Both the position numbers and the translations under genes were made by a program. From assembly GCA_965219385.1 (NCBI GenBank), contig CBDCNM010000001.1, positions 1,166,631 to 1,230,630 on the forward strand: 64,000 nt of DNA, in the 5' to 3' direction. Shown here one piece after another: positions 31,616 through 56,397 of the stretch. Under the pieces are notes generated by a model. It was not told the origin of the DNA. It made no database searches and saw only the letters and a list, made by a program, of their open reading frames with translations. The first letter of the stretch is position 1. Each line of letters starts with the position of its first letter. The stretch comes from Candidatus Latescibacterota bacterium. GTDB taxonomy: Bacteria; Latescibacterota; UBA2968; UBA8231.

Positions 31616-34600
31616 TCAATCTCCATTCCGCCGTGCCAGGGCGTCTATCCTCCTTTTCAACTCTTCGACGATCAGGCGATAAATTTCGTAGCGGTGCAGA
31701 CTGCCGCACCGGTCCCTGTACGGCTCCATCTCCAGGGGTTGGCCAAACCTGAGCCGAATGAGAGGACGGCGCGAACGGCGGCCCCGGGCGCGCGCCTGAA
31801 AGCTCCCGTGGACGTGCACCGGGACAATCGGTAGATCCAGTTCCAGAGCCAGCAGCCCCACCCCTGTTTTAAAAGGCTGCAGCTGACCGCTGGGAGAGCG
31901 CATCCCCTCTGGAAAAACCAGCAGGGGCCGGCGGGTTTCCAGCAAGGAGCGAATTTCGATCAGGCTCTGGCGGAAGTTTTCGCCGTGATCCAGAGCCAAG
32001 GCGTTGGCAAAGGTGCGCAGGAACCACCCCGACAGCACCGAGCGAGAAAAATAAGACCGCCCCACCGCCAGGGTTACACAATCCACGTGGGACCGCAGAG
32101 CGAGCAGGATCGAGGGAGGATCGAGATGACTGGTATAGTTTGCCGCAATCAGATAGGGCCGATCCTGGGGCAAATTTTCCAGCCCGTGCGCCCGATACGA
32201 GAACAGGACATTGAAAAGAAGACGTCCCGGCCGCCACAACAGACCCTGCAACACCCTCCGGCCCAGCCCCCCCCACCGCGCCGGTCGCCGCTCCTCGGTC
32301 CCCAGCAGCCTGGACCAGTACCTGCTCGCTTCATGCCCATCCCGCCCTTCCACCAGTCTGTCTACCTGTTTGGCGAAGCTGGATTCGAGTCCTGCCACCA
32401 GGTCCCGCAGACTACAGCGGCTGCGATCGATAGGCTCCAGTTTTACCCCCAGGCGCTCCTCGAGACAGGCTCCAAACTCCACCCCCATCAGCGAGTCCAG
32501 CAAGGTATCCAGCGGGGCCTCCGAGTGGGCCACGACCTCGCTGAAGCTCAGGCCGGTGACCTGGCTGACCTGCTGGTAGACCTGGCGCTCCCACGGCGGC
32601 AGGCTTTCGTCGATCTCGGCCCCTTCGCGCTCCAGCTGCAACTCGGCCAGCAAAGCCGCCCGGTCCAGGTCCCCATCGTCCAGGCGCGGCAAGGGGCGCT
32701 TCCATATGTGCAGATGCTGAATCCGCTGGTAGGTGGACAGGGTGCGGGAAATCTGGTAGGATCGGGTCCTGATTTCCCCACATGCTTTTTCCTCCTCCTG
32801 GACGCCGGCGCTTTCGAGGACGGCCACCCCGTGGATTTCTTCCCCCAGGGTCCGCGGTGAGTACACCCCGGCCACGCCCAGCTCGGTCACGTAGGGCAGG
32901 TCCCCGTACAGGGCTTCCACCTCTTCGGGATAGACGTTCTTGCCGGCGCCGGTGACGATCATGCTTTTGCAGCGACCGGTGATAAAAAGATAACCGTCTG
33001 CGTCCACATAACCGAGATCTCCTGTGTGGAGCCAGCCATCGCGCAACGCGGCGGCCGTGATCTCCGTCTTATTGAGATACCCGGCCATGATATTGGCTCC
33101 CTTGACCAGGATCTCGCCCTCCTCGCCGTCGGCCCCTGCGATGGCCACCTCCTGCCCCGGCAGCACCTGGCCCACGGAGCCGCGGCGCGGACGTTCCAGG
33201 GGATTGACCGCGACAATCGGGGCGGCTTCGGTCAGGCCATAGCCCTCGCAAAGGCGGATCCCCAGGCCCTGGTAGGCATCGTGGATCTCGGACGAGAGGG
33301 GCGCCCCGCCGCTGACCACTAGGCGCAAGCTGCTCAGATCGGCACTGTTGTCCAGACGCTGGACGCGGTCGGCCAGGACCTTGAGAATGCGCGGCACGCT
33401 CAGCAGGGCCGTGGTGCCGGTGGCGTGGATTGCCCGGAGAATTTCGCGGCTGTTGAAGCTCTCAAGGTAGGTGGTGGTGGCACCACCCAGAATAGACATC
33501 AACAGTCCCCCGGTAAACTCGAGTCCGTGATGCAGGGGGAGTACAGAGAGAATTCGATCGGACTGGTAAACCGGCTGCACCTGGGCCAGAGCCAGTAGAT
33601 TGGCAATGAAATTGCCGTGGGTGAGCAAAACCCCGCGGGGGTCGACGGCCGTGCCGGAGGTAAAGATGATGGACGCCACCATATCGGGCGCAACCCTGGG
33701 TCGTCTCCACTCGAGGGATGAGGGTGCTCCCTCCCCTTCCCGACCCAAACCCGAACCGCCCTGCTCCAGATCGAGAAAGTGCAGGGGCTCGTCCAGTGCC
33801 CTCCGCTCTGCTACCCGCTCGGCGGCGAGGAGAGTTAGGTAGTCCGGTGAAGTGATAAGCGCCCTGGCTTCGGTGAAGTCGGCCAGAGCCCAGATCTCCT
33901 CTTCGCGGGTATGGGGGTCCAGCGGGACCACCGTCAAGCCAAGACTCGAAGCGGCCATATAGGCCATGACCCACTCGGGGCTGTTGGCCGTCCACAACAT
34001 CACCCGGTGCCCCGGCTCCAGGCCCTGCTCCTGCCAGGTTGCGGCCAGCAGGTCGACGCGCTGCTGCATCTCGCGATAGGTATAGCGCACCCAGCGGTCT
34101 TTGCGCTCGACCTGAAAAGCCACTTTGTCGGCGTAGCGGCTGCAGGCCCAGCCGATCAGGTCGGGAATGGTCTCTATACCCTCTTCTTCGTGCCAGCGTT
34201 CCTCCTCCTCTCCCACCTCCTCGGGCGCCTCATGCAGCAAGGGGTCCCCAATCGCATCCTCCTTCAACACGTGTTTTCTGAGACCGGGGAGATGAATCTT
34301 AGGGTAGTACTCCGCCCAGTCGATCTGGCGCACGTCCATGTCGAAGATCCGTTGTTCTTCGGGTGACAGGGATTCGTACAGGTCCCGGGTGCGCTGGCTC
34401 TCGAAGCGGCAGTCCAGGTGGGCATAAGGAGCAAATAAATCGGTGTAGTAGAGCAACCGTTGCAGGCGGGTCCTGAGGGCTACCAAGCTGCGCTTCCTGG
34501 GCGGGGATACCAGGCGTCCCGGGAGCCGCTTGAGCAGCCATTGCCAGGCCCTTAAAGGATACATGTACTTGAGGTAAAACAGGATTTTGAACTTGCGCTG

Positions 34601-35851
34601 GCTCGAAAAGGTCCATTCGGGTAGAGAGGGTATGCGCCCGTCCCTGCCGGACATGGGATGGGCGCGGAAATGGCTCTTGATGTACTCGAACAGATCCGCA
34701 TTGATCAGGGGATTTTCCGCACTGCTGGCCACCTGAAATACTCCAACCTCTTCCTTGCAGGCCCGGGTAGCAGCGCCCAGTATGACATTGACGACTATAT
34801 CCACGGGGATCAGATCCATGGCGACATTGCGCCGGGCGGGAAAATCGGGCACCAGACCACGGCCATAGGCCACGATCAAAGGATCCGATACCTTGAGGCC
34901 GCTGATCCAGCCCGGCTCGGGGTCCTTCAGGCTGCTCTCGATCACACTGGGCCGCACGATCACCAAGGGTACATCGCCGTGGTGTTTTACCAGCATTTGT
35001 TCGCCCATGGCCTTGGTGAAGGTGTAGATGTCATTCCAGCCATAGGTCTTGGCCCGGCGCATGCCCTCTTCCACCAGCCGGCGCTCAATCCAGCTCTTGC
35101 GCCGGTTTTCGATCAGTTTTTCAAGCCGCTTCTCGGAGAGCTGACGGCTGTGCCTCTGGTCCAGTATCTGCCGACGGAAGATCTCCAATTGTGCGGCGCT
35201 GGCCGCCTGTGCGTGGAGGTTCTGGCAGCTGGCCTGACAGTCCCGGATCTCGGCCTCGGGATCAAAGGGTTTGTCCGTAGAGGGAGAGCCCATCATCTGG
35301 GCGATGGTGCGGTCCAGAGGCAGAAGCTCTTCGGGAATCGAGCCGGAACGCCGGCCGTTTACATAGGCGGTGGACACCTGGAGAAAGACCACCTCTCGCC
35401 GACAGGCCCGCGCAAACTTGAGCACCTCCTGGGGCCCCAGGGTATTGAGCTTGAGGGAAAAATCCAGCGGCGCGTCGAATTCAACCGTGGCCGCGCTGCC
35501 GATGACGAGATCGATCTCGTCGAGCAGCTGCTCGCGGACCCTTTGCTCGAACCCCAGATCCGGGGCCGTGAGATCCCCGTCGACGGCAACGACCTTATCC
35601 TTCGCCTCTTCGTAAGCGCGGGGATCGGTTGCCTTGAAGCGGTCGAACAGGCTGGTGGCAAAGCAGTCTCTCTCCAGGCGCTCCGCTACCGAGAGGACGG
35701 TGCCATCGGGCTGTTTCCGGGGGCGTATCAGCACGTAGACCTTGTGGACCTGCGGCAGGTCGCGCAGGATTTTGGCCAACAAACCTTTGCCCAGGAAGCC
35801 TGTGACGCCTGTGAGCAGTATGGTGCGATCCTTGTAAAACTCTCTGATCAT
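31616..35851 (-). CDS. Multidomain fatty acyl reductase - acyl-CoA ligase - ACP - acyltransferase (ElbD-like architecture)
   Basis: TGVTGFLG, VSTAYV, YTFTK (reductase); FTSG, GYGLTE, TGDLG, GKNVYPEEVE (AMP-binding); LDSL (carrier Ser); FPEG.RS and PFKTG (PlsC-type). Confidence 0.9.
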   Translation of the reverse strand: MIREFYKDRTILLTGVTGFLGKGLLAKILRDLPQVHKVYVLIRPRKQPDGTVLSVAERLERDCFATSLFDRFKATDPRAYEEAKDKVVAVDGDLTAPDLGFEQRVREQLLDEIDLVIGSAATVEFDAPLDFSLKLNTLGPQEVLKFARACRREVVFLQVSTAYVNGRRSGSIPEELLPLDRTIAQMMGSPSTDKPFDPEAEIRDCQASCQNLHAQAASAAQLEIFRRQILDQRHSRQLSEKRLEKLIENRRKSWIERRLVEEGMRRAKTYGWNDIYTFTKAMGEQMLVKHHGDVPLVIVRPSVIESSLKDPEPGWISGLKVSDPLIVAYGRGLVPDFPARRNVAMDLIPVDIVVNVILGAATRACKEEVGVFQVASSAENPLINADLFEYIKSHFRAHPMSGRDGRIPSLPEWTFSSQRKFKILFYLKYMYPLRAWQWLLKRLPGRLVSPPRKRSLVALRTRLQRLLYYTDLFAPYAHLDCRFESQRTRDLYESLSPEEQRIFDMDVRQIDWAEYYPKIHLPGLRKHVLKEDAIGDPLLHEAPEEVGEEEERWHEEEGIETIPDLIGWACSRYADKVAFQVERKDRWVRYTYREMQQRVDLLAATWQEQGLEPGHRVMLWTANSPEWVMAYMAASSLGLTVVPLDPHTREEEIWALADFTEARALITSPDYLTLLAAERVAERRALDEPLHFLDLEQGGSGLGREGEGAPSSLEWRRPRVAPDMVASIIFTSGTAVDPRGVLLTHGNFIANLLALAQVQPVYQSDRILSVLPLHHGLEFTGGLLMSILGGATTTYLESFNSREILRAIHATGTTALLSVPRILKVLADRVQRLDNSADLSSLRLVVSGGAPLSSEIHDAYQGLGIRLCEGYGLTEAAPIVAVNPLERPRRGSVGQVLPGQEVAIAGADGEEGEILVKGANIMAGYLNKTEITAAALRDGWLHTGDLGYVDADGYLFITGRCKSMIVTGAGKNVYPEEVEALYGDLPYVTELGVAGVYSPRTLGEEIHGVAVLESAGVQEEEKACGEIRTRSYQISRTLSTYQRIQHLHIWKRPLPRLDDGDLDRAALLAELQLEREGAEIDESLPPWERQVYQQVSQVTGLSFSEVVAHSEAPLDTLLDSLMGVEFGACLEERLGVKLEPIDRSRCSLRDLVAGLESSFAKQVDRLVEGRDGHEASRYWSRLLGTEERRPARWGGLGRRVLQGLLWRPGRLLFNVLFSYRAHGLENLPQDRPYLIAANYTSHLDPPSILLALRSHVDCVTLAVGRSYFSRSVLSGWFLRTFANALALDHGENFRQSLIEIRSLLETRRPLLVFPEGMRSPSGQLQPFKTGVGLLALELDLPIVPVHVHGSFQARARGRRSRRPLIRLRFGQPLEMEPYRDRCGSLHRYEIYRLIVEELKRRIDALARRNGD

Positions 35852-36332
35852 ATTTTCGGAGAACGGACCGCTTCGTCCGACCGCTGTTGACGGAAGGGTG
35901 ACGAAGCTGTCAGAAGGACATACTATCTGCCCGACCAATGCTGCGTCCAGCAGGTCGGTAGCCAGCCTTGCGTCGGTTTCGGTAACGACACCGGCGATGC
36001 GTAGGTACGCGAAGGTGTGGGCCGCAGGATATCAGGTCCGAAACCCCAATACACTTCCAGGGGGCCTAGGCTCCAAATAAGCGAGTTTGGATTATTTATT
36101 CGGGTTTAATACCCCGCAGCTTGCTGCGCTGTATGCTGAGTGGTTATTTTATGAGACTTGTCGCGTAATAATACGCTTTCCCTCCATAAATACCTACAAA
36201 TTCAACAACCTGTGAAAGTGGTGGGTGAAATTACAGTATATACTTGTTTTTCAATGATTTATAATCCGTTTTTCCTGGTAACGCGACAACCCTAATATAG
36301 CACAGATTGGCTACGGGCACAACTACCTGGTT

Positions 36333-36515: not shown

Positions 36516-36648
36516 GGAAGCCTTTCTTACATATTTCTTAAAGACAGCTTCTTAAATCTAAGCCAACCCCCTGTTGCGGCAATACCCCCTCCTTGTCTTC
36601 AAAGCCCCAACCGTCCTATTTTATGCTTCATTTAGTGAGGTCGGTAGA

Positions 36649-37539
36649 TTGCCGGACAACTGGGTTCTGATTGCCAATCCCGCCGCTGGTAGGGGCCAGG
36701 CCCGTCCAGGGGCCGAAAAGGCCGCCCGGACGTTGGAAAGTTCCGGCCAGACCGTTGATCTGCGCTTCACCCGGGAGCGTGGTCACGCCGCCGAACTGGC
36801 CTGTCAGGCCGTGCGGGAAGGCGCGGCTCGCCTAATTGTATGCGGCGGGGACGGGACCCTCTCGGAAGTGCTGCCCGGCCTGGCCCACGGTCCGGTCGCC
36901 CTGGGTTTGCTGCCCTGTGGCACGGGCAATGATTTCGCCCGCTCTGTGGGGATTCCGCGCCGGTTCGACCAGGCCCTTCGCACCCTGTTGCACGGCCGGG
37001 GCCACACCCTGGATTTGGCCCGGGTGGATGACCACTTGTTCTGTACGGTGGCGGCTTTTGGTTTTGATGCCGAAGTCAGCCACACCGTGAACACCGGTCA
37101 GGCCCCCTTTCCCGGCACTCTGGGTTATCTCCACACCGCCCTCAAACACCTCTCGCGCTACCAGCCCCCCCACGTCCGCCTCTCGGGCGAGTTCGGCGAG
37201 TACCAGGGCGAGGTCTTGCTGGTGGCCACCGGCAACACCAGTAGTTATGGAGGAGGCCTGAAGATCGTGCCCACCGCCCACCCGCAGGATGGCAAGCTGG
37301 ATGTGTGTATCGCCGGCAAGCTCGAAACGCGGAGCATCCTCAACCTGCTGCCGCGGGTGTTCTGGGGCGGCCACCTGCACCACCCTGCCGTGCGCTGCGA
37401 ACGCACCTCCTGGCTCAAAATCGAGACCGCCGAACCCCGCGTGATACACGCCGATGGCGAGCACGTGGGGGAAACCCCGGTGACCCTGCGGAGTGAACCG
37501 GCGGCCCTGACCGTGGTGCTGCCGGGCGCCCCCCCATAA
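36649..37539 (+). CDS. Diacylglycerol kinase family lipid kinase (YegS/BmrU-like)
   Basis: ANPAAG, GGDGT, P.GTGNDFA, N...YGGG and DGE motifs; start placed at TTG 36649 after GAGG. Confidence 0.92.
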   Translation: MPDNWVLIANPAAGRGQARPGAEKAARTLESSGQTVDLRFTRERGHAAELACQAVREGAARLIVCGGDGTLSEVLPGLAHGPVALGLLPCGTGNDFARSVGIPRRFDQALRTLLHGRGHTLDLARVDDHLFCTVAAFGFDAEVSHTVNTGQAPFPGTLGYLHTALKHLSRYQPPHVRLSGEFGEYQGEVLLVATGNTSSYGGGLKIVPTAHPQDGKLDVCIAGKLETRSILNLLPRVFWGGHLHHPAVRCERTSWLKIETAEPRVIHADGEHVGETPVTLRSEPAALTVVLPGAPP

Positions 37540-37622: not shown

Positions 37623-38594
37623 ATGGCCACCAGGGCTCAGAAGGTCCGACTCGCTCTTTTCTTTCTCATCTCCGGGATTGTTCTCACGTTTTTCCTGCTC
37701 TTCACAGTCGGCCTGCACCTGCTGAAAAAACGCGAATACTACCTCATCGAATTCAGCGGTATATCCCTGGGGGGCCTGAGCGATGGCGCCCAGGTCAAGT
37801 ACCAGGGTTTCAAAGCCGGTCGGGTAGAAAGCATTTCCATCTCCCCCGAGGATAACACCATCCTGGTGGTGGAAATATCGGTCCAGCCCGACATGGTCGG
37901 GGCCATCAAGACCGATACCCAGGCCAGATTGCACTCCCAGGGCCTTATCGGCATAAAGCACATCGAACTCATGGCCGGAACCCGGGAGGCCGATGTTTTG
38001 CCACCAGGCTCCACCATCCCGGTCGGCGAGACCTTCTTTTCCGACTTCGACCAGCGGGCCGAAATCCTCACCGACAAGATCGATCGGGTCCTGGACAACG
38101 CCATCCTCCTCACCAGCAAGGAGAACAGCGTCCAGTTCAACAAGATGCTGCACGCCAGCGGCAACCTGATGGAAAACGCCGATCATCTGCTCCGCGAAAA
38201 CAGGGCGCCGATCCACCAGACCTTTGAAAACATGGCGCAAACCACCCGTTCCCTGGCCCATGCCGCTGCTACCTTGCAGGCGACCATGGATTCCCTGCAC
38301 CAGATGCTCACCGGCACCGAAGCCCACAACGCCATTGCCGATCTGCAGGCGGCGACCCATCACATGCGCCGGCAAATTGAAGGCCCGCTCCCCGAACTGA
38401 TCGCCCGCATGGACAAAGCCACTGCAAACATAGACCGGACCTTTACCCACATCGACCGGACCGTGGTCTCGAGCCGCCAGAACATCCTGGACGCCTTGCA
38501 GGAGTTGGAAGAAACCCTGCAAAACGTGCGCGAAGCCACCGAACTCATCCGCGAGGATCCCTCTATCCTGATCCGCGGCAGGGAGAAAGAATAG
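37623..38594 (+). CDS. MCE/MlaD family protein with helical C-terminal extension
   Basis: N-terminal TM helix, GLSDGAQVKYQG..AGRV, GLIG.KHIEL and DPSILIRG motifs. Confidence 0.9.
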   Translation: MATRAQKVRLALFFLISGIVLTFFLLFTVGLHLLKKREYYLIEFSGISLGGLSDGAQVKYQGFKAGRVESISISPEDNTILVVEISVQPDMVGAIKTDTQARLHSQGLIGIKHIELMAGTREADVLPPGSTIPVGETFFSDFDQRAEILTDKIDRVLDNAILLTSKENSVQFNKMLHASGNLMENADHLLRENRAPIHQTFENMAQTTRSLAHAAATLQATMDSLHQMLTGTEAHNAIADLQAATHHMRRQIEGPLPELIARMDKATANIDRTFTHIDRTVVSSRQNILDALQELEETLQNVREATELIREDPSILIRGREKE

Positions 38595-38598
38595 CGGC

Positions 38599-39387
38599 AT
38601 GATGCGCCTGTATTTATCCGTCCTCATCGTGGTTGCAGGTATGGTGTTGAGCAGCTGTACTCAGCTCATAGGCGGCAAGACCGAAATCCGCGTGCGCCGC
38701 AAATTCACCCTTGCAACCCAGCCCCTCAGACTCGAGCTCAAAGACTCGAAGCGGCCCTATCCCCACAAGGTGCAGATCAAAAAAATCGAGGTCCCTGGCA
38801 CCTACGATCGCGACCAGATCGTCTTCCGGCTTTCGACCTTCGAACTAAAGGAGGACAAATCTCATATCTGGGCCAACCGGCCCAGCAAGATGCTCACCGA
38901 CGTGGTCGAAGAATACCTCAACAGAGCCAATCTCTTCACCCAGATCAGCCAGGAGTTTCTCGACGAACGGCCCGACTACACCCTCGTTTCAACGATCAAG
39001 GCCATCGAGCGCTTCGACAGCGGCGACTTGTGGTACGCCCACCTGGCCATGTCCATGAAATTGGTGGATGCGGAGACCAACGAGGTATTCTGGAGCGATG
39101 ACTTCGACGAACGACCCCGGGTCTACAACAAGGACATGGCCTTTACCGTGGAAGCCTTGAGCCAGATACTGCGCAAAAAGATGGAACGATACATCAGCGA
39201 AATAGACTTCAAATTCCTGAACAAGATGAGCGCGGACCAAGGCCAGCCGCTCGGCCCACCCGCCGATGGGCCCGGGCAACAGCCCCTGGCCGGCAATCCA
39301 GCCCGCAACGATACCTTGAACCACCTCTTCGCACCCAACCCCGATTACGAAATCATCCCGGGCAAGCTCGCGCCCGAGGAAGACTGA
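38599..39387 (+). CDS. PqiC-like ABC-transport auxiliary lipoprotein
   Basis: Lipobox LSSC, YDRDQIVFR and WANRPSKML; follows the MCE gene. Confidence 0.8.
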   Translation: MMRLYLSVLIVVAGMVLSSCTQLIGGKTEIRVRRKFTLATQPLRLELKDSKRPYPHKVQIKKIEVPGTYDRDQIVFRLSTFELKEDKSHIWANRPSKMLTDVVEEYLNRANLFTQISQEFLDERPDYTLVSTIKAIERFDSGDLWYAHLAMSMKLVDAETNEVFWSDDFDERPRVYNKDMAFTVEALSQILRKKMERYISEIDFKFLNKMSADQGQPLGPPADGPGQQPLAGNPARNDTLNHLFAPNPDYEIIPGKLAPEED

Positions 39388-39414
39388 ACCGGCTTGCAAA
39401 AAGCAAAAACAAAG

Positions 39415-49482: not shown

Positions 49483-51716
49483 TCCTTCACCGCTATGATT
49501 TCCGCTACTTCTTGCTGCAGCTTCACCAACTCGTAGAACGCCCCTTCTCTGGCCATGAGTTGGTCGTGGGTGCCCACCTCGACGATGCGCCCCCCGTCCA
49601 GCACCACCAGCCGGTCGGCGTTGCGCAAGGTCGACAGCCGGTGGGCAATCGCAAAGGTGGTGCGTCCCTTCACCAGCTGGGCAATGGCTTCCTGGATCTG
49701 CTTTTCGGTCTCCACGTCCACCGACGAGGTGGCCTCGTCAAGGATGAGGATTTTGGGGTCGTGCAGCACTGCCCGGGCAATGGCGATGCGCTGTTTTTCC
49801 CCGCCCGAAAGACCCCCGCCGCGCTCCCCTACTTGGGTGTCGTACCCGTCGGGTTTGGCCGTGATGAAGGGATGGGCATTGGCGGCCCGGGCCGCGGCCA
49901 TGATCTCCCCGAAGGAGGCTTCGGGCTTGCCGTAGCTGATGTTCTCGGCGATGGTGCCGCTGAACAACACCGGCTCCTGGGGCACGATGCCGATCTGCCG
50001 CCGCAACTCCTCCAGGCGGATCTTGCGGATATCCACCCCATCGATCTCGATGGCGCCGCGATCCACCTCGTAGAACCGGGCGACCAGGTTCACGGTGGTG
50101 GTCTTGCCTACCCCGGACTTGCCCACCAGGCCGATCATCTCGCCCGGCGCCGCCTCCAGGTCCATTTCCTGGAGCACGGGCTTGCTCTTGTCGTAGCCGA
50201 AGGTGACCCGGAGAAACCTCACCTTGCCCTCCATCCGGGGCAGGGCCACGGCCTGGGGATCCTCGTAGGCTTCGGGGGTGGTGTCAATGACCTCGAAGAT
50301 GCGCTCGGCCCCGGCAAAGGCCCGCGTCATCCACGAATTGACCTGGGCAAACCACTCCAGGGGCCCGTACACCAGCCACATATAGGCGTAAAACGCCAGC
50401 AGGGCGCCGATGGTGAGTTCGTCCCTGAGCACTTCCCAGCTCCCGAAGAACCAGATGATCAGCATCCCGAACCCGGTAACCAGCCCCATGGTCGACCACA
50501 ACACGAACCAGTTGCGCGCCGTCCTGCGGCTGATCTGCCCCAGTTCCCGGTTCTTTTCCTCAAAGGCATCCACCTCCCGGTGTTCCTGGGCAAAGGCCTT
50601 GACCACGCGGATGCCGTTGAGGGCTTCGTTGAGGCGCGTACTCAGGCTCGACCACCCGTGCCCGTACTTGTGGAAGATGCCTCTCATGCGCCGCCAGAAC
50701 AGGACGCTCCAGAACAAGATCAGCGGGATCGGCACCAGGATGTAGAGGGTGAGCTTCCAGCTCATGAAAAACAAAAAGCCCAGTATGCCCACGATCATCA
50801 GGGCATTGATGATCAGGTAGGGCAACCCTTCCACCAGGAAGTCCTGCAGCATCTCCGCATCCCGCGTCACCCGCGAAATCAGGGAACCGACCTGGCGCTT
50901 GTCGTAAAACTGCATCGACAGCATCTCCAGCCGGCGGTAGAGCTGGCTCCGAATATCCGCGGTCACCCGGGCGCTCAGCCAGGCCATGGTCCAGCCGTGC
51001 GCCAGCTCCGTGCACCAGTTCCACACCCTCACCCCCACCAGGGCCAGGACCAGCAAGCCCAGCAGGATCAGGCGCTGGTCCACCTCGACGCTGGCCTCTT
51101 CGACCGGTACCAGGACCTCGTCCACCAGGCGCTTGGTGATCAGGGGCGGCAGCAGTTCGGCCAGGGCCGTGGCCACCGAGGCCAGGGCCAGGAAGGCAGC
51201 CTTGCCCTTGTGGGGCTTCATGTAGGAGACGATGCGCGCCAGGGTGCTGAAGCGGTGGATACAGGCCGGACAGAGCCCGTTTTTTTCGGGCAGGAGCCGG
51301 CCGCACTTCTCGCAGCGGATGCGGTCCAGCTGGGCGCTGATCTGGAAGGGCTCTGCGCTGCGGAGCTGTTCGATGCCCCTGGCCACTTCCGCGAACTTGA
51401 CACTCAGGGAGCTGGAGTAGGGCACCAGGATGGGCGGCCCATCCTGGCGCTGCAGCTCCAGCTGGCTGCCCCCTACCAGGGCTTCATTCTCTACTGCGGC
51501 CAGTTCCCCCACGGGTATTTCCCGGGCCCCGCCCCTGCTCCCGACCGGCACCACCAGCACCCGGCTACCGGTGACCACCACCCACTGGGCACCGAAACGC
51601 CCATCCGCATCCAGATCCGCCGACACCCGCATCAGCATCTCTTCATCGCCGGGGATCAGGGCTTCTATCTTCTCGGCCACGGGCCCTGAAACTGGATCCA
51701 GGAGTTTCATCCTCAA
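49479..51716 (-). CDS. ABC exporter (TMD+NBD), paralogue of the adjacent gene
   Basis: GKSGVGKT, LSGGEKQR, ILDEATSS; CEKC...CPAC. Confidence 0.92.
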   Translation of the reverse strand: MRMKLLDPVSGPVAEKIEALIPGDEEMLMRVSADLDADGRFGAQWVVVTGSRVLVVPVGSRGGAREIPVGELAAVENEALVGGSQLELQRQDGPPILVPYSSSLSVKFAEVARGIEQLRSAEPFQISAQLDRIRCEKCGRLLPEKNGLCPACIHRFSTLARIVSYMKPHKGKAAFLALASVATALAELLPPLITKRLVDEVLVPVEEASVEVDQRLILLGLLVLALVGVRVWNWCTELAHGWTMAWLSARVTADIRSQLYRRLEMLSMQFYDKRQVGSLISRVTRDAEMLQDFLVEGLPYLIINALMIVGILGFLFFMSWKLTLYILVPIPLILFWSVLFWRRMRGIFHKYGHGWSSLSTRLNEALNGIRVVKAFAQEHREVDAFEEKNRELGQISRRTARNWFVLWSTMGLVTGFGMLIIWFFGSWEVLRDELTIGALLAFYAYMWLVYGPLEWFAQVNSWMTRAFAGAERIFEVIDTTPEAYEDPQAVALPRMEGKVRFLRVTFGYDKSKPVLQEMDLEAAPGEMIGLVGKSGVGKTTTVNLVARFYEVDRGAIEIDGVDIRKIRLEELRRQIGIVPQEPVLFSGTIAENISYGKPEASFGEIMAAARAANAHPFITAKPDGYDTQVGERGGGLSGGEKQRIAIARAVLHDPKILILDEATSSVDVETEKQIQEAIAQLVKGRTTFAIAHRLSTLRNADRLVVLDGGRIVEVGTHDQLMAREGAFYELVKLQQEVAEIIAVKD

Positions 51717-52498
51717 GAGGCAGCCGGATCCTCTCCCGGGTTATCGGCCCCGACGAGAAAGGGCCGCAGGGCCCGGATCCGCTTTACGTCCTCGGCCACC
51801 TCCGCGGCTGAAACATCCAGAAAGCGCTCGCCCTTCGCGGCCGTGGCCGTGGTCGGATCCCCCACGCCCCCGTGCCGGGTGCGCTGGTCGAAGCGGTAGT
51901 ACGAGGCGGCGCCGGGGACCCGCATGCCCTCGCGCTCGCCATCGGGATCCAGCCGCTCCATGCGCACCAGTTCCGGCCGCAGGGCCAGGATTATCGAGGT
52001 CTCGGTCTCGCCGGCATGGCCCGACCCACCACTGCCCCGGTCGCGGATCTTTTCCAGCTTGTCGGTGCTGCCCCAGGCCCAGCGGGTGTAAAACTCGGCC
52101 TCCTGGTTCTGGTAGCGCTCCATGAGGCGCTGCAGCAGCACCTGGATACCCGCTCCATTGCCGCCGTGGCTGTTCTGGATCAGGATCTTCCTGAAACCGT
52201 GGCCCACCATGGAGGCCACGATATCCATCATCAAGCGCAAATGGGTATCGGAAACCGCGCTCACTGTTCCGGGATAACGGATGTGGTGCTGGGAATACCC
52301 GAGCCACTGCACCGGCAGTACCAGGACATCGTCCGGCACCCGCTCGTGGACCCGGCGGGCGACCTCGCCGCCGATCATGCTGTCGGTAAACACCGGCAAA
52401 TGGAGGCTGTGCTGCTCGCAGGAGGCCACGGGGATCAATACCACGATGTCGCGCGGCAGGGCGTCGATTTCGGGGGAGGTCATCTCGGCTAAGATCAT
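51713..52498 (-). CDS. Creatininase family amidohydrolase
   Basis: EQHS.HLP..TD, S.HH..YPGT, NSHGGN and HAGETETS; AGGAG RBS before ATG 52498. Confidence 0.92.
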   Translation of the reverse strand: MILAEMTSPEIDALPRDIVVLIPVASCEQHSLHLPVFTDSMIGGEVARRVHERVPDDVLVLPVQWLGYSQHHIRYPGTVSAVSDTHLRLMMDIVASMVGHGFRKILIQNSHGGNGAGIQVLLQRLMERYQNQEAEFYTRWAWGSTDKLEKIRDRGSGGSGHAGETETSIILALRPELVRMERLDPDGEREGMRVPGAASYYRFDQRTRHGGVGDPTTATAAKGERFLDVSAAEVAEDVKRIRALRPFLVGADNPGEDPAAS

Positions 52499-52587
52499 CT
52501 TGTGCTCCTTCTCTTGGTTGAATGCCGCGCGGCGGTCTCCGGATCCAGCTCGGGGCACAGCCCCTCGTCGGCCGCGGCGGACATGCT

Positions 52588-53601
52588 TCAGACAAAGGCT
52601 GGTTTCACCGGCACCGACTGCCGGGCGGCCGAAGTATTGGCCGCCTCCAGCACCCCGATCACGCGCGCCGCCGACTCGGGCGTGATCACCAGATCGGCTC
52701 TGCCCAGCAGGTGATCGTAGACATTCTGGTAGTACATATATCCCGTGGACTCCAGATAGTCCACTTCCGTACTCATGCGGCGCCCCTTTATCATGCTTTC
52801 GACCCGGAACTTGCCGCCGCTATCCTCAATGGCGCCCTGCTCCCCCAGAATCCGCCAGCGCGGACGGCCGCTCATCGACAGATTGGACATGGTCAGGGTC
52901 GCCGTGCAGCCGCCCTTGAAGCGCAGGGTGTATTCGGAGTGGTCTTCGTTGGTATAGCCCTTCCAGGTTTTGTTTTTGACCTGATAGCCGCTGACCCAAT
53001 CCACCGGCTCGGGCACCAGGTTGAGAATCCAGTCGGTGAAATGGGCGCCCCAATCGTAGATGGACCCGCCCGAGATCTTCTTATCCGCTCGCCACCAGTC
53101 GGGCTGGGGGCCGTACCCGTAAAAGCCGGTTTCGATGCGAAAGACCCGGCCGATCAGCTTTTCCTCGTTGATCAGATCCCGCAGCACCATGAAATCCCCG
53201 TCCCAGCGGCGGTTGTGAAAGGTGGAGAGGAAAAGCCTTTTCTTGCGGACCACCTGCAGCATCGCTTTGATTTCCTTGCTGGTGACGGCCATGGGTTTTT
53301 CGCAGATCACGCCGACCCCGGCATTGAGACACTGTAGCGCCAGCTTACCGTGAGTGTTGTGGGGCGTGACCACCGCCACCAGGTCCAGATCGGCGCATCT
53401 GAGCATGTCGCTCGCCCGGCTGTACGCGCGGATTCCGGGCCAGTCCTCAACCGCGGTCTGGCGCCGGGCGGCATCCACATCGCAAACCGCCACGGCCTCC
53501 ATGCCCTCCTTCTCGCTCATCTCACCAAGGTGGTGACGGCCCATGTTGAAGGCCCCGCCATACCCGATCACCCCACAACGAAAGTTTTTCTTTTTTTTCA
53601 T
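52588..53601 (-). CDS. Gfo/Idh/MocA family oxidoreductase
   Basis: GVIGYG, CEKP, HNRRWD and GG.IYDWGAH motifs. Confidence 0.92.
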   Translation of the reverse strand: MKKKKNFRCGVIGYGGAFNMGRHHLGEMSEKEGMEAVAVCDVDAARRQTAVEDWPGIRAYSRASDMLRCADLDLVAVVTPHNTHGKLALQCLNAGVGVICEKPMAVTSKEIKAMLQVVRKKRLFLSTFHNRRWDGDFMVLRDLINEEKLIGRVFRIETGFYGYGPQPDWWRADKKISGGSIYDWGAHFTDWILNLVPEPVDWVSGYQVKNKTWKGYTNEDHSEYTLRFKGGCTATLTMSNLSMSGRPRWRILGEQGAIEDSGGKFRVESMIKGRRMSTEVDYLESTGYMYYQNVYDHLLGRADLVITPESAARVIGVLEAANTSAARQSVPVKPAFV

Positions 53602-53695
53602 GTATCCTTTCCCTTGTTTGTAGCCGATCCCCGGAGACCTGGATCTGCAAAGGACCAGGTCCCAGCCCTTCCGGCCGTTTCTCGCCCATGGTCGG

Positions 53696-54505
53696 TTACT
53701 GGGCCTTCTGTTTTCCCATGGCACCCTTGATGAGGGATTCGGCCCACTGTGGTCGAAGCAGATTTAGCAACAGCAGCAGTTTGAGCTTCCAGGGAATGAT
53801 CAGTTCGGATTCGCGCCGGTGCATGGCTTGCACAATGGCCCGACCGGCCTCCTCGACCGAGACCGATTCCTCGCTGTGTTTTCTGGAAGAAGCCCTGAGT
53901 GCCTCCCCGCCTTTGCCCAGGGCGTTTTTCCGCAGATCGGTACCGCGCAGCCAGTGCGGCAGCACGGTGAGCACATCGACCCCGCTGCCCTCCAGCTCCA
54001 TCCTGAGGGTCTCGCAAAAGCCCTGCAAGGCGTGCTTGGAGGCGACATAGCCGGTGTGCTGCGGCACCCCGATCTTGCTCTGAATCGAGGTGATGGCCGC
54101 AATCATGCCCTTGTTCTGCTTCAGGTAGGGCAGGGCATAATACACACAGTACAGAGCCCCCAGGTAGTTGATCTCGATCAGCCGGCGGAATACATTCAGG
54201 TCTTCCACCTCGTCGAATCTCGCCCACATGCTGATGCCGGCATTGGCAATCAGGTAATCCACCCCCCCAAAGCGGCCGACGGTCTCGTCGATCAGTCTTT
54301 TGCAGTCCTCGGGCCGGGTGACATCCCCGATCACCGCTAGGGCCTGCGCCCCGATCGCCTCGCACAGCCCCGCAACCTCTTCCTGTTGCTCTTTTTCCGG
54401 GGAAAACAGCGCCAGTCGGGCTTCGGCTCTGGCGAATTCCAGGGCCAGCGCCGCGCCCAACCCCGACGAGGCCCCGGTTATGATTACGGATTTTTCTCGA
54501 AACAT
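53696..54505 (-). CDS. Classical SDR oxidoreductase (DHRS7/7B-like)
   Basis: TGASSGLG, NAG, YVASKHALQGF.ETLR.EL. Confidence 0.9.
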   Translation of the reverse strand: MFREKSVIITGASSGLGAALALEFARAEARLALFSPEKEQQEEVAGLCEAIGAQALAVIGDVTRPEDCKRLIDETVGRFGGVDYLIANAGISMWARFDEVEDLNVFRRLIEINYLGALYCVYYALPYLKQNKGMIAAITSIQSKIGVPQHTGYVASKHALQGFCETLRMELEGSGVDVLTVLPHWLRGTDLRKNALGKGGEALRASSRKHSEESVSVEEAGRAIVQAMHRRESELIIPWKLKLLLLLNLLRPQWAESLIKGAMGKQKAQ

Positions 54506-54552
54506 GCTTTTAGCCGCCGCCTGAAAGTGAAACCTTTTGCCGCACCGCTACC

Positions 54553-56397
54553 TCAGGAGCGCGCGGCAAAGACCCCGTTGCCGATTCCGAAGGTATTGTT
54601 GGGATCCATGGCCTTTTTGACCTGCTGGAGAACCTGGATGCTGTTGTGGGTCTGGATTTGAGCGAGGAAACCCTTTCTGACCTTGCCCACCCCGTGGTGG
54701 TGGGAAAGCGAGCCGCCGTGATCGAGAATCACCTGCCTGAGGTGGTGCTCGATTTCATAGTAGACTTCGTGCGGTTTTTCCAGCCCCCGGGCGGAAAAGC
54801 CCATGGTGAAGTAGATGCAGACGCCGGTGGGATAGGTCTGGGTTACTCGGTAGGCCAGATAGGGCCGTCCACTCACCTGGCGCGCCTGGCACTGTGCTGC
54901 CAGCTCCCGCTGGACCGCCTGGCAAACCGGGTGAATCCGATCCCAGGGCACCGAGGTTTCAAAAGTCTCGCCGAGGACGTGAAACTGGTTGAAGAAATCT
55001 CTGATATAAGCAATGGCAAAGGTAAGCATATAACCCCGCTTGCCGTTGCGCGCCCCGCCGCTGATTCCCCCATGCTTTTTGACGAGTTTGAAGATCACCG
55101 CCTTTTGATGGTTAACCTCGCTCCGGGAACCTTCCATGAGGATGGTGCAGGCCGCTATCTCGAGCGGCTTGAAGCCGAGGATTTTCAGCAGCATGAACTT
55201 TTGGAAAAACCCCATTATCCCCTGCCACAAACCGGGCGCGGGCTTGAGGGCCTGGCCGAATCTGAACTCGGTGTTGTCCACCAGGCGAATGCTGGCCGGC
55301 AGGACGCCTTCCCCGCGCAATTCCTTCAAAAAACGAACCCCGTTTTCAAAAGACGGGAAAACCAGAGAGCCATAGCGCCGCACCTGGGGCCGGGGATGGA
55401 TCTTGATGATGGCCTTGGTGATGATGCCGAAATTGCCCTCGCTGCCAAAGAGAAAGACCCGGGGCTGAATCCCCACCGAGTTCCGCGGGGTGGCGCTATG
55501 GGTTTCGATATCCCCGGTGGGCGTGACCAGGGTAGCTTCGAGCACGATGTCCTCGATATTTCCGTACCTGTTCTTCTTCATGCCGCTGGCGTTGGTCGCG
55601 ATCCACCCCCCCAGGGTCGACAGCTCGACGCTGTCCGGGTCGTGGCCGGAGGTGTACCCCCTTGAATCCAGTTCCCTTTCCAGGTGCTTGCCGGAGATCC
55701 CGGCCTGGACACAGGCCTGGAGGTTGTCCTCGTCCAGCCAGAGAATCTGGTCCATCCGGCGCATATCGACGGATGCGATCATGCGCTGCTCGGCGGGCGG
55801 ACAGGCCAAGGCGCCGCTCACATTGGTCCCTCCTCCGTAGGGCACCAGGCACACATCGTGCTCGTCGGCCAGCCGCACCACGACCTGCACATCCTCCTCG
55901 CTTTGCGGATAGAGGGCCAGGTCCACCGTGCGCGGCAGCGAGCCGTGGTAGAGGACTCTATAAACCTCGTCGACGCTTAGTTGCCCGTGGCTGTGAATCA
56001 ACCTATCGCGGTCGTCGAACGAGATCTGATCCGCTGCAAACCTTTGCTTTGCAGCCTCGGTGAAGCCCTGGTTTATCCTGGCTTGGGGCACCACCTGATC
56101 CTCTTTCTCCGTCTCCATATCCCGCGGGCGAAACGACTGCCCCAGGACCTCTTCCGCAAAGGGGATGAAACCGGGGAGACTGTACCCTGCAAGCGGGTAG
56201 CGGCTGCCGGTAACCCGCACACTCCGCGGGCCATCGAACTCGAACCGGGTGTCGGTATAACCCCACTTGTGCGGGTATCTCTCGCCCTCGGAGGAATCGT
56301 AGCAGGCATCCAGTTCTTCGGCGCCATCCTGCCGTTTCACGATGATCAGGATCAGACCGACCACAACCACGGCCAGAGCGAGAAGGGCTTCAAGCAT
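54553..56397 (-). CDS. Alkyl-dihydroxyacetonephosphate synthase (AGPS-type FAD enzyme) with N-terminal membrane anchor
   Basis: PYGGGTNV, GHDPDSVELSTLGGW, ASGMKKNRYGNIED, GSEG.FG, IAYIRD, FETS.PWD, RVTQTY and HHHGVG; AGGAG RBS before ATG 56397. Confidence 0.9.
   Translation of the reverse strand: MLEALLALAVVVVGLILIIVKRQDGAEELDACYDSSEGERYPHKWGYTDTRFEFDGPRSVRVTGSRYPLAGYSLPGFIPFAEEVLGQSFRPRDMETEKEDQVVPQARINQGFTEAAKQRFAADQISFDDRDRLIHSHGQLSVDEVYRVLYHGSLPRTVDLALYPQSEEDVQVVVRLADEHDVCLVPYGGGTNVSGALACPPAEQRMIASVDMRRMDQILWLDEDNLQACVQAGISGKHLERELDSRGYTSGHDPDSVELSTLGGWIATNASGMKKNRYGNIEDIVLEATLVTPTGDIETHSATPRNSVGIQPRVFLFGSEGNFGIITKAIIKIHPRPQVRRYGSLVFPSFENGVRFLKELRGEGVLPASIRLVDNTEFRFGQALKPAPGLWQGIMGFFQKFMLLKILGFKPLEIAACTILMEGSRSEVNHQKAVIFKLVKKHGGISGGARNGKRGYMLTFAIAYIRDFFNQFHVLGETFETSVPWDRIHPVCQAVQRELAAQCQARQVSGRPYLAYRVTQTYPTGVCIYFTMGFSARGLEKPHEVYYEIEHHLRQVILDHGGSLSHHHGVGKVRKGFLAQIQTHNSIQVLQQVKKAMDPNNTFGIGNGVFAARS

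What the first reader, a model, noticed from the sequence alone, without database searches (positions are those of the whole stretch)
31616..56397. Candidate hybrid ether-lipid pathway: ElbD-like fatty-alcohol producer plus AGPS plus SDR
Seen: three genes within 25 kb, namely a reductase-ligase-ACP-acyltransferase fusion (31616-35851), an alkyl-DHAP synthase (54553-56397) and, 47 bp downstream of it on the same strand, a DHRS7/7B-like SDR (53696-54505). Known: this four-domain architecture is that of Myxococcus ElbD (ether lipids). In animals FAR makes fatty alcohol, AGPS exchanges it for the acyl group of acyl-DHAP, and an SDR (DHRS7B/PexRAP, yeast Ayr1) reduces alkyl-DHAP. Inference: this apparently non-myxobacterial organism makes alkyl-glycerol ether lipids by combining both routes. 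No DHAP acyltransferase or plasmalogen desaturase is visible in the window.
Basis: partly seen in the sequence, partly recalled or inferred. Interest (0 to 1): 0.82.

Follow-up and report, generated by a model that had tools for sequence, protein, structure and literature searches.

The report
Ether-lipid pathway genes in Latescibacterota
Three genes of this uncultured bacterium fit an animal-style route to ether-linked membrane lipids; the gene pair was already reported for its phylum, but relatives keep the genes in one operon with an unnamed acyltransferase that may supply the missing step.

Summary
All three genes are real. AGPS is a true alkyl-DHAP synthase (E 1e-151 to guinea-pig AGPS, HHH loop and catalytic Tyr kept). 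A classical SDR follows it after 47 bp. The 1411-1440-aa protein has ElbD's domain order: FAR, ACS, ACP, AT.

The genome is a Latescibacterota MAG. "Hybrid of two routes" overstates the novelty. M. xanthus has both elbD and agps, and both homologues were already reported in Latescibacterota MAGs (PMC11868695; bioRxiv 10.64898/2026.06.23.733905).

New here:
- The FAR domain is the positional counterpart of a standalone FAR. In sister families that FAR lies in a tight FAR-X-AGPS-SDR(-lipid kinase) operon.
- X is an unannotated ~645-aa protein. Its C-terminal half has a PlsC/GPAT fold (Z 17.2) and an HX4D motif, so it is the best candidate for the "missing" DHAP acyltransferase. This genome encodes it on the other contig.
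- FAR, X and AGPS co-occur in 120 of 168 genomes of the phylum.
- The window's own AT domain has Tyr in place of the catalytic His.
- No PEDS1/CarF or PlsA-type reductase domain was found, so plain alkyl ethers are predicted, not plasmalogens.

No step has been tested biochemically. The scan earlier noted a similar SDR-acyltransferase-AGPS set in an actinobacterium (e1-5211310).

The parts
31616..35851 (-). ElbD-like four-domain protein (FAR, acyl-activating, ACP, acyltransferase). The likely start is ATG 35851; the longest ORF runs to TTG 35938.
   Evidence: Pfam domains. Translation. Relatives align from residue ~28 of the long ORF. 415 homologues, most with the same Pfam set.
34259..35815 (-). 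FAR part (NAD_binding_4 plus Sterile; residues 42-560 of the 1440-aa ORF). It is predicted to reduce an activated fatty acid to a fatty alcohol.
   Evidence: The TGxTGFxG and YTFTK motifs are conserved in 113 homologues. It is the only FAR-type gene in the genome; the only other strong NAD_binding_4 protein is an A-PCP-R. It is the positional counterpart of standalone FARs.
32636..34150 (-). AMP-binding (acyl-activating) domain, residues ~597-1101.
   Evidence: Pfam 4e-78. NCBIfam long-chain-fatty-acid ligase and Aas-type models, all below their cut-offs. The P-loop (FTSG..PRG) and the C-terminal LPRLDDG region are atypical across the whole family.
32354..32596 (-). ACP-like segment with the LLDSLM serine motif (Ser1149 of the long ORF).
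   Evidence: PF00550 E 0.0025, below its cut-off. The motif is conserved family-wide. PF00550 is recognised in more distant homologues.
31814..32194 (-). PlsC/Aas-type acyltransferase domain. Motif I is NYTSHLD: Tyr1268 (codon TAT, 32135-32137) stands where the catalytic His of HX4D is expected.
   Evidence: PF01553 4e-19. NCBIfam AGP_acyltrn and Aas models. Motif counts: 92 of 113 canonical, 5 of 113 Y/F, 16 of 113 degenerate.
54553..56397 (-). Alkyl-DHAP synthase (AGPS), with a hydrophobic N-terminal helix.
   Evidence: Present in 125 of 168 genomes of the phylum.
53696..54505 (-). Classical SDR, candidate acyl/alkyl-DHAP reductase.
   Evidence: TGASSGLG; Ser-Tyr-Lys with YVASK. Conserved directly downstream of AGPS.
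36574..37539 (+). YegS/Rv2252/BmrU-family lipid kinase, divergent from the ElbD-like gene. Likely accessory member of the module.
   Evidence: Pfam. TIGR00147 at 184 bits, cut-off 119. It is the last gene of 13 of the 23 FAR-X-AGPS clusters and lies next to the FAR or fusion gene in 7 of 12 f1 loci.

Best explanation
The window holds three dispersed pieces of a DHAP/AGPS-type alkyl ether glycerolipid pathway, the same type as in animals. The pathway is near-universal in one class of Latescibacterota.

Proposed steps, all inferred and none assayed:
1. The FAR domain of the ElbD-like protein makes a fatty alcohol. Its acyl-activating and ACP domains possibly feed it.
2. Protein X, a PlsC-fold acyltransferase encoded on the other contig (G000:C2:418225-420159), makes 1-acyl-DHAP.
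3. AGPS exchanges the acyl group for the alcohol, giving 1-alkyl-DHAP.
4. The adjacent SDR reduces the keto group, giving 1-alkyl-glycerol-3-phosphate.
5. Ordinary acyltransferases and head-group enzymes finish the lipid. The YegS-type lipid kinase may re-phosphorylate alkyl(acyl)glycerol.

The product would be a plasmanyl (saturated alkyl) ether lipid, not a plasmalogen. In this lineage the ACP-AT end of the fusion looks to be decaying, so the protein probably serves mainly as the pathway's reductase.
For: AGPS is genuine. It matches guinea-pig AGPS at 1e-151, nearly full length. The SLSHHHGVGK loop is identical, and the Tyr that 4bca replaces by Phe is kept.

In sister families f2, f3, f4 and f14 the genes sit on one strand with gaps of -14 to 81 bp, in the order (ACS)-FAR-X-AGPS-SDR-(lipid kinase). 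Of 80 X loci, 23 show FAR-X-AGPS; 20 of those also have the SDR and 13 also the kinase.

Within the window's family, one syntenic slot (Mla genes, kinase, then FAR, Lgt, OYE) holds either a standalone FAR or the four-domain fusion. Their FAR parts form one clade (100/100) with the two forms interleaved.

Co-occurrence across 168 genomes of the phylum: AGPS in 125, FAR in 132, X in 132. All three are present in 120 genomes and none in 33.

An SDR follows AGPS in 26 of 30 loci, and also in the lone holder outside the phylum, G168. A second AGPS clade (45% identity) is followed by a different SDR that is only 28% identical.

X residues 356-644 match T. maritima PlsC at Z 17.2 (231 aligned, rmsd 3.4) and human GPAT1 at Z 12.1. 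His444 is invariant and Asp449 at least 90% conserved in 25 sequences.

In G000, FAR, X, AGPS, SDR and the kinase are each single-copy, and only three PF01553 matches exist.

No PF10520 (PEDS1/CarF) and no PF09989 (PlsA/Ger reductase domain) match was found in G000.
Against: Nothing has been assayed, and no lipid data exist for this uncultured group.

In G000 only AGPS-SDR and fusion-kinase are adjacent; the module is spread over three loci.

The co-occurrence is essentially one clade plus G034, so it is not a set of independent events.

Seven genomes have FAR plus X but no AGPS at E<=1e-60: G008, G037, G039, G149, G150, G152 and G153. Two of them carry FAR-X-HAD-Zn-ADH-LarA_N-like clusters instead. 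X can therefore work without AGPS, which weakens "X = DHAP acyltransferase".

In M. xanthus, ElbD acts largely independently of AGPS (PMC9131029).

Pontiella carries elbD homologues but no ether lipids were detected in it (PMC11868695).

X has no sequence link to GNPAT, PlsB or PF01553 at significant E.

The SDR shows no specific affinity to any characterised reductase.

The PF10520 control rang in none of the 14 control genomes, and the genome is 94% complete.
Confidence: 0.62

Rival explanations
1. There are two parallel, independent routes, as in M. xanthus. The ElbD-like protein makes alkyl ethers by the still-unknown, AGPS-independent Elb mechanism. AGPS-SDR (with X) forms a separate minor route, which merely borrows fatty alcohol from the only FAR.
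For: M. xanthus genetics: deleting elbD removes most ether lipid, while deleting the AGPS gene has a small effect (PMC9131029). Fused ElbD-like genes occur without AGPS in genus g15 (4 of 5 genomes) and in G031. 92 of 113 fusions keep a canonical AT motif.
Against: There are no ElbB/C/E-type neighbours here, and G000 has no homologue of the HAD found in the AGPS-free clusters. The window's AT domain has Tyr for the catalytic His, and the closest relative lacks ACP-AT. Standalone FARs occupy the same slot in AGPS-bearing relatives.
Confidence: 0.2
2. FAR and X make fatty alcohols and wax-type or other neutral esters for storage or the envelope. AGPS-SDR is functionally unrelated to the ElbD-like gene.
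For: A FAR plus an acyltransferase is the minimal wax-ester pair. FAR-X occurs without AGPS in seven genomes.
Against: FAR-X-AGPS-SDR form tight operons in 20-23 of 80 X loci. X has the glycerolipid PlsC/GPAT fold. Known bacterial wax synthases belong to the WS/DGAT family, not this fold (recalled knowledge).
Confidence: 0.08
3. The AGPS homologue and the SDR act on another substrate, for example in breakdown or remodelling of host-derived ether lipids, and not in de novo synthesis.
For: Fragments at least 99% identical to this stretch occur in sponge-labelled RNA libraries, and sponges are rich in ether lipids (abstract of bioRxiv 10.64898/2026.06.23.733905). Earlier scan notes describe AGPS-like branches with other roles.
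Against: Per those notes (not checked here), the AGPS-like branches have Fe-S and kinase partners and are more distant. This protein aligns to animal AGPS over its whole length including the N-terminal domain and has no Fe-S neighbour. Linkage to a FAR points to synthesis.
Confidence: 0.07

Closest known systems
Myxococcus xanthus ElbD (MXAN_1528) in the elbABCDE operon (Lorenzen et al. 2014, known to me only through PMC9131029 and PMC13012113)
   Same: It has the same domain order, FAR, acyl-activating, ACP, AGPAT-like acyltransferase, and a similar size.
   Different: It has no ElbA/B/C/E neighbours; its neighbours are Lgt, an OYE-like flavoprotein and a lipid kinase. Motif I of the AT domain has Tyr for the catalytic His.
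[quoted passage not shown]
   Same: An AGPS is genetically linked to a FAR, an acyltransferase and an NAD(P)-dependent reductase-type protein.
   Different: In Latescibacterota, FAR and the acyltransferase (X) are separate genes. X is not recognisably GNPAT-like in sequence and has a ~350-aa helical N-terminal domain. The reductase is a classical SDR and not an extended, epimerase-type one. A lipid kinase is often appended.
Mammalian peroxisomal ether-lipid pathway: FAR1, GNPAT, AGPS, PexRAP/DHRS7B
   Same: The proposed chemistry and order of steps are the same. The AGPS is clearly homologous (1e-151).
   Different: The acyltransferase is a non-orthologous candidate. Orthology of the SDR to DHRS7B/Ayr1 is untested. 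There is no PEDS1, so no vinyl ether is expected. AGPS has a hydrophobic N-terminal helix, with no eukaryote-type targeting signal apparent (the targeting signal is recalled knowledge).
Thermotoga maritima PlsC (PDB 5kym) and the GPAT/AGPAT superfamily
   Same: X residues 356-644 share the fold (Z 17.2) and the HX4D motif.
   Different: Only 14% identity. There is no Pfam or NCBIfam hit. Motif III reads Y-(G/P)-x-G-T-T where acyltransferases such as the fusion's own AT domain have FPEGTRS. There is a large extra N-terminal domain. The substrate is unknown.
Published screens: elbD and agps homologues in Latescibacterota MAGs (PMC11868695; bioRxiv 10.64898/2026.06.23.733905)
   Same: They report the same two genes in the same phylum: 50 of 92 and 67 of 92 Black Sea MAGs, and sponge MAGs with 'standalone elbD' plus agps.
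   Different: Those were BLAST presence/absence screens. The main text of the preprint does not contain the terms GNPAT, SDR, DHAP or fatty alcohol (0 occurrences). Supplements were not seen.

Membership tests
AGPS (alkylglycerone-phosphate synthase, EC 2.5.1.26) | Full-length similarity to characterised AGPS, including the N-terminal AGPS-specific region and the FAD_binding_4 and FAD-oxidase_C domains | tested here: met
   4bby at 1e-151 over query 62-625 against chain 95-656. 2uuu at 1e-89. The next family scores 1e-23. Pfam domains.
AGPS (alkylglycerone-phosphate synthase, EC 2.5.1.26) | Catalytic HHH loop and active-site tyrosine | tested here: met
   SLSHHHGVGK is identical to the guinea-pig enzyme. 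The Tyr in CIYF is kept; 4bca differs from 4bby by Phe at that position. The residue numbers Tyr578 and His615-617 are recalled, not taken from a call.
AGPS (alkylglycerone-phosphate synthase, EC 2.5.1.26) | Exchange of the acyl group of acyl-DHAP for a fatty alcohol | not testable with these tools
   Needs an enzyme assay.
ElbD (M. xanthus multifunctional ether-lipid enzyme) | Domain order FAR, acyl-CoA/ACP ligase, ACP, AGPAT-like acyltransferase | tested here: met
   The ACP is seen only by a sub-threshold PF00550 match plus a conserved DSL motif. The architecture of ElbD itself is taken from PMC9131029.
ElbD (M. xanthus multifunctional ether-lipid enzyme) | Embedded in an elb operon with a HAD-type ElbB, ElbC and an NAD-epimerase-type ElbE | tested here: not met
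   The neighbours are Lgt, an OYE-like protein, a lipid kinase and Mla genes. This synteny holds in all 11 relatives' loci and in the 4 standalone-FAR loci.
ElbD (M. xanthus multifunctional ether-lipid enzyme) | Sequence orthology to MXAN_1528 | not tested
The published BLAST screen (E<1e-30, identity >=30%) reports hits in 50 of 92 Latescibacterota MAGs (PMC11868695).
ElbD (M. xanthus multifunctional ether-lipid enzyme) | Catalytically intact acyltransferase motif I (HX4D) | tested here: not met
   The window has NYTSHLD. 92 of 113 homologues have NHxxxxD.
Acyl/alkyl-DHAP reductase (EC 1.1.1.101; PexRAP/DHRS7B, yeast Ayr1) | Classical SDR with a TGxxxGxG cofactor motif and a Ser-Tyr-Lys catalytic set | tested here: met
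   TGASSGLG and S...YVASK. adh_short 2e-44.
Acyl/alkyl-DHAP reductase (EC 1.1.1.101; PexRAP/DHRS7B, yeast Ayr1) | Specific relatedness to DHRS7B or Ayr1 | not tested
   No reference sequence was available. PDB matches are spread evenly over many SDR types at 1e-25 to 1e-20, and the Atlas gives only generic SDR clusters.
Acyl/alkyl-DHAP reductase (EC 1.1.1.101; PexRAP/DHRS7B, yeast Ayr1) | Functional linkage to AGPS | tested here: met
   The SDR is downstream of AGPS in 26 of 30 loci, in 13 of 16 loci and in G168. A different SDR follows the second AGPS clade.
GNPAT / DHAP acyltransferase (for protein X, outside the window) | GPAT/AGPAT fold with an HX4D catalytic motif | tested here: met
   5kym Z 17.2, 8e4y Z 12.1, 1iuq Z 11.4. 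HQSLLD with His444 invariant.
GNPAT / DHAP acyltransferase (for protein X, outside the window) | Detectable sequence homology to GNPAT, PlsB or PF01553 | tested here: not met
   Four of five X proteins have no Pfam hit; the fifth has PF01553 at E 0.012. No NCBIfam hit. A profile against PDB sequences gave 0 hits at E<=10. A profile against 1.84 billion representatives returned no full-length relative from another family.
GNPAT / DHAP acyltransferase (for protein X, outside the window) | Acylates DHAP | not testable with these tools
   Needs an assay. The only evidence is its operon position between FAR and AGPS.

The most novel reading that the evidence does not exclude
X is a previously unrecognised family of DHAP acyltransferase that replaces GNPAT non-orthologously, and the adjacent SDR is a bacterial alkyl-DHAP reductase. 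FAR-X-AGPS-SDR(-kinase) would then be a complete, self-contained bacterial operon for the 'peroxisomal' ether-lipid pathway, built partly from different parts than in animals and myxobacteria. It would be directly transplantable into E. coli.
Probability: 0.4. Interest if true: 0.7.

Novelty: new variant of a known kind. Interest (0 to 1): 0.5.

Why it matters
Bacterial alkyl ether lipids are used as environmental and palaeo-proxies, and they bear on the origin of eukaryotic ether lipids. Yet apart from AGPS and ElbD, the bacterial enzymes are unassigned.

This locus and its relatives give a concrete, testable four- or five-gene set for a whole, uncultured, sponge- and sediment-associated phylum. 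They also nominate two unassigned enzymes: a new acyltransferase family and an SDR.

Tried and rejected
- PEDS1/CarF (PF10520) was searched in the own genome and gave no match, but the control rang in none of 14 genomes, so this is weak evidence.
- PF09989 (PlsA/Ger reductase domain) gave no match in G000; the control rang in 4 genomes.
- The second strong NAD_binding_4 protein of G000 is an A-PCP-R reductase next to unrelated genes, not a FARAT.
- The Atlas search with the SDR returned only generic SDR clusters.
- A profile of X against PDB sequences gave nothing at E<=10. Foldseek and VIA gave only coiled-coil-like, low-Z matches for X's N-terminal ~350 residues. That domain was not folded alone, so no claim of a new fold is made.
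- A search for X in 80 other genomes of G168's class found none, so G168 is a lone holder.
- Laying RNA contigs: four RNA libraries labelled sponge metagenome (one study) hold 170-709-nt contigs at least 99% identical over AGPS, the SDR and other genes of 38500-58400. None bridges the AGPS-SDR junction, the depth is 2-5, and DNA carry-over cannot be excluded. This is not evidence of co-transcription.
- The promoter/terminator scan of 51500-58500 was uninformative.
- No complex-prediction job was sent, because the two proteins exceed the size limit unless cut arbitrarily and no binding claim is made.
- Sequence comparison with M. xanthus ElbD and Agps, with human GNPAT and DHRS7B, and with yeast Ayr1 could not be done.

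Full report
**Observation.**

- ORF 31616-35938 (1440 aa from a TTG). Pfam finds NAD_binding_4 plus Sterile (a FAR), then AMP-binding, then Acyltransferase PF01553.
- An ACP lies between the last two domains, but the evidence is weak. PF00550 scores E 0.0025, below its cut-off, when the segment is scanned alone. The LLDSLM serine motif is conserved in 113 full-length homologues, and more distant homologues carry PF00550.
- ORF 54553-56451 (614 aa from ATG 56397, the length of its homologues). It matches guinea-pig AGPS (4bby) at E 1e-151 over residues 62-625 and Dictyostelium AGPS at 1e-89. Generic FAD oxidases start at 1e-23.
- Its SLSHHHGVGK loop is identical to the guinea-pig enzyme. It keeps the Tyr at the position where the variant entry 4bca has Phe.
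- ORF 53696-54505 lies 47 bp downstream. It is a classical SDR with TGASSGLG and a Ser-Tyr-Lys set.

**Whose genome.**

The window is G000:C1:1166631-1230630 of a 5.81-Mb, two-contig assembly that is 94% complete. An earlier scan note calls it an uncultured Latescibacterota bacterium. Most named records holding close relatives of its genes are titled Candidatus Latescibacterota MAGs; some are titled Gemmatimonadota. Fragments at least 99% identical occur in RNA libraries labelled sponge metagenome.

**What is already known.**

I read passages of PMC9131029. I also read the abstract, section 11 and passages of PMC13012113.

- M. xanthus ElbD has exactly this domain order and sits in elbABCDE.
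- The same organism also has an operon MXAN_1676 (AGPS), MXAN_1675 (a FAR-GNPAT fusion) and MXAN_1674 (an NAD-epimerase-type protein).
- Deleting elbD removes most ether lipid. Deleting the AGPS gene has a small effect.

ElbD plus AGPS in one genome is therefore the myxobacterial state, not a new hybrid.

PMC11868695 (passages) reports BLAST hits of M. xanthus ElbD in 50 of 92 Black Sea Latescibacterota MAGs and of Agps in 67 of 92.

The preprint 10.64898/2026.06.23.733905 (section 13 read in full) reports "standalone elbD" plus agps in sponge Latescibacterota MAGs. Its main text never uses the terms GNPAT, SDR, DHAP or fatty alcohol (0 occurrences). I did not see the supplements of either paper. 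I know Lorenzen et al. 2014 only through these summaries.

**Comparative genomics, the main new evidence.**

I searched the 168 genomes held for the phylum three times.

| Query | Threshold | Genomes with a match | f1 | f2 | f3 | f4 | Other families |
|---|---|---|---|---|---|---|---|
| AGPS | E<=1e-60 | 125 | 71/75 | 1/3 | 22/22 | 29/31 | 1/36 |
| ElbD-like protein | E<=1e-80 | 132 | 72/75 | 3/3 | 22/22 | 31/31 | 3/36 |

- Only 49 genomes, all of family f1 and including G000, match the ElbD-like protein over nearly its whole length.
- G031, in another class, has the fusion too.
- All other matches cover only the FAR part. They are standalone FARs of ~540-570 aa at 39-63% identity.

In f3 and f4 that standalone FAR lies about 2 kb from AGPS. 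I fetched 16 AGPS regions and called genes in them. They show the following gene order on one strand, with gaps of -14 to 81 bp:

- FAR, then a ~650-aa gene "X", then AGPS, then the SDR.
- A YegS-type lipid kinase often follows.
- In G038 an acyl-CoA-ligase gene comes first.

The SDR lies within 1.5 kb downstream of AGPS in 13 of these 16 regions, and a different SDR follows in a fourteenth. In the 30 AGPS loci returned, own locus included, it follows in 26. Of the four without it, L022 ends at the contig end. The other three are L030, L033 and L039.

**Protein X.**

Sequence searches give almost nothing:

- Four of five copies have no Pfam hit. One has PF01553 at E 0.012.
- There is no NCBIfam hit.
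- A profile against PDB sequences finds nothing at E<=10.
- A 25-sequence profile against 1.84 billion representatives finds 75 proteins. Only 7 are full-length relatives; the rest are fragments or two weak long outliers.
- Sources call it "hypothetical protein", once "1-acyl-sn-glycerol-3-phosphate acyltransferase".

The structure is more informative:

- The AlphaFold model is confident (pLDDT 87.8, pTM 0.90).
- Residues 356-644 match T. maritima PlsC at Z 17.2 (231 aligned, rmsd 3.4), human GPAT1 at Z 12.1 and plant GPATs at Z 10.6-11.4.
- An HQSLLD motif has His444 invariant and Asp449 at least 90% conserved.
- The N-terminal ~350 residues are helical and gave no convincing match. That part was not folded alone.

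G000 encodes X on its other contig (C2:418225-420159), among unrelated genes.

X is found in 132 of 168 genomes: f1 73/75, f2 3/3, f3 22/22, f4 31/31, others 2/36.

Combining the three searches:

- 119 of the 132 genomes of f1-f4 (G000 included) have FAR, X and AGPS. So does G034, which makes 120 of 168.
- 33 of 168 have none of the three.
- The negative sets do not overlap. Several negatives are assembly gaps: G062 has a partial AGPS at a contig end (L131), and G075's cluster is cut by a contig end.
- These genomes are kin. The pattern is essentially one clade plus a few outliers, not many independent events.

Of 80 named loci holding X:

| Arrangement | Loci |
|---|---|
| X alone (the dispersed f1 type) | 52 |
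| FAR-X-AGPS-SDR-kinase | 13 |
| FAR-X-AGPS-SDR | 7 |
| FAR-X-AGPS | 3 |
| FAR-X | 3 |
| X plus a creatininase-like gene | 2 |

**The fusion versus the standalone FAR.**

In f1 one syntenic slot holds either the four-domain fusion or a bare FAR. The slot is MlaE, a 511-aa protein, an ABC auxiliary lipoprotein, MlaD and sometimes the kinase, and then, divergently, FAR followed by Lgt and an OYE-like gene.

A maximum-likelihood tree of 32 FAR parts puts all f1 sequences in one clade (100/100), with fused and standalone forms interleaved. The operon-type FARs of f2, f3, f4, f8 and f14 form another group (94/94). The root is midpoint only, so no direction of change is claimed.

The C-terminal end of the fusion is decaying in the window's lineage:

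- The closest relative (G095, 71% identity) has FAR-ACS followed 250 bp later by Lgt. That leaves no room for ACP-AT.
- Among 113 full-length homologues, 92 have the canonical NHxxxxD acyltransferase motif and 16 are degenerate.
- Five have Tyr or Phe in place of the His. These are the window's protein (NYTSHLD, Tyr1268, codon TAT) and four of its nine closest relatives.
- The His of HX4D is the catalytic base of this superfamily (established knowledge, recalled). The window's AT domain is therefore probably impaired.
- The ACS-ACP-AT part resembles Aas-type acyl-ACP synthetase/acyltransferases in NCBIfam.

**Most likely mechanism.**

All steps are inferred.

1. The FAR domain supplies fatty alcohol.
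2. X supplies acyl-DHAP.
3. AGPS makes alkyl-DHAP.
4. The SDR reduces it to 1-alkyl-G3P.
5. Housekeeping enzymes finish the lipid.
6. The lipid kinase may salvage alkyl(acyl)glycerol.

G000 has single copies of all of these genes and only three PF01553 matches. PF10520 (PEDS1/CarF) gave no match, though its control rang nowhere. PF09989 (PlsA/Ger) gave no match, with its control ringing in 4 genomes. I therefore predict alkyl ethers, not plasmalogens.

A second AGPS clade (45% identity, G038) is followed by a different SDR that is only 28% identical. This fits a recurring need for a ketoreductase after AGPS.

**Evidence against, and open points.**

- Seven genomes have FAR and X but no AGPS: G008, G037, G039 and four of the five genomes of genus g15.
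- In G037 and G008 the cluster continues with a HAD hydrolase, a Zn-dependent dehydrogenase and a LarA_N-like protein.
- This recalls the HAD-type ElbB of the myxobacterial elb operon. It shows that X can serve an AGPS-free route, so X may be a different glycerolipid acyltransferase, for example sn-2 acylation of alkyl-G3P. G000 has no homologue of that HAD.
- The SDR's likeness to DHRS7B or Ayr1 was not testable.
- M. xanthus genetics, and the Pontiella case in PMC11868695, warn that homologues do not guarantee ether lipids.
- The RNA-library contigs are short and shallow, and they do not bridge the AGPS-SDR junction.

**Novelty and verdict.**

The finding as written, ElbD-like plus AGPS in a non-myxobacterium, is a new member of a known kind and is already reported for this phylum. 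What I did not find in the papers searched or read:

- the operon FAR-X-AGPS-SDR-kinase;
- the X family;
- the conserved AGPS-SDR pair;
- the decay of the fusion's AT domain.

An earlier, unchecked scan note describes an analogous SDR-acyltransferase-AGPS set in an actinobacterium (e1-5211310).

I rate it a new variant of a known kind, interest 0.5. My confidence that these window genes work in one alkyl-ether pathway is 0.62. My confidence that X is specifically the DHAP acyltransferase is about 0.4.

Noticed in passing
G037 = L154:2531-12717 and G008 = L153:7060-17669 (relatives, not the window): AGPS-free variant of the cluster: (ACS)-FAR-X-HAD hydrolase-Zn-dependent dehydrogenase-LarA_N-like protein(-lipid kinase-methyltransferase). 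It may be an alternative, Elb-like way to the ether bond. The HAD recalls ElbB of M. xanthus.
   Followed up: partly
window 29357-31606 (-) and 37623-42034 (+): The single-copy Lgt and an OYE-like flavoprotein lie directly downstream of the FAR or fusion gene. A Mla-type lipid transport cluster (MlaD, auxiliary lipoprotein, a 511-aa protein without Pfam hit, STAS-MlaE) lies upstream. This synteny is conserved throughout family f1. Functional link or plain inherited synteny is undecided.
   Followed up: partly
window 56332-56397 (-): From its likely ATG, AGPS begins with a hydrophobic helix (MLEALLALAVVVVGLILIIVKR). This suggests a membrane anchor.
   Followed up: no
L144 and L159/L160 (G168): A 2-Mb record titled as a Gammaproteobacteria MAG carries FAR-X, and elsewhere AGPS-SDR with the AGPS split over two frames. 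None of 80 other genomes of its class has X, and its FAR nests among family f4 sequences. This points to horizontal transfer or a binning or assembly problem.
   Followed up: partly
window 47230-53724 (-): Downstream of the SDR on the same strand lie a GFO/IDH/MocA oxidoreductase (overlapping the SDR by 29 bp), a creatininase/MftE-like amidohydrolase and two ABC exporter genes. Only the closest relative (G095) shares the GFO gene after the SDR. They are probably unrelated to the lipid genes.
   Followed up: partly
window 27-9560 (+): A very long ORF (3177 aa, 70% G+C) lies at the start of the window. It was not examined.
   Followed up: no
window 61499-63398 (+): A lower-G+C stretch (55%) carries an AAA_15/AAA_21 ATPase (AbiEii-like annotation) and a 185-aa ORF without Pfam hit. 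It may be a small defence or mobile island.
   Followed up: no
ElbD-like family, residues ~760 and ~1083 of the 1440-aa ORF: Across the family the acyl-activating domain has an atypical P-loop (FTSG..PRG, with a two-residue deletion in many members). It also has LPRLDDGxVDR where the C-terminal lysine motif of ANL enzymes is expected (recalled). Its adenylation chemistry may be unusual.
   Followed up: no
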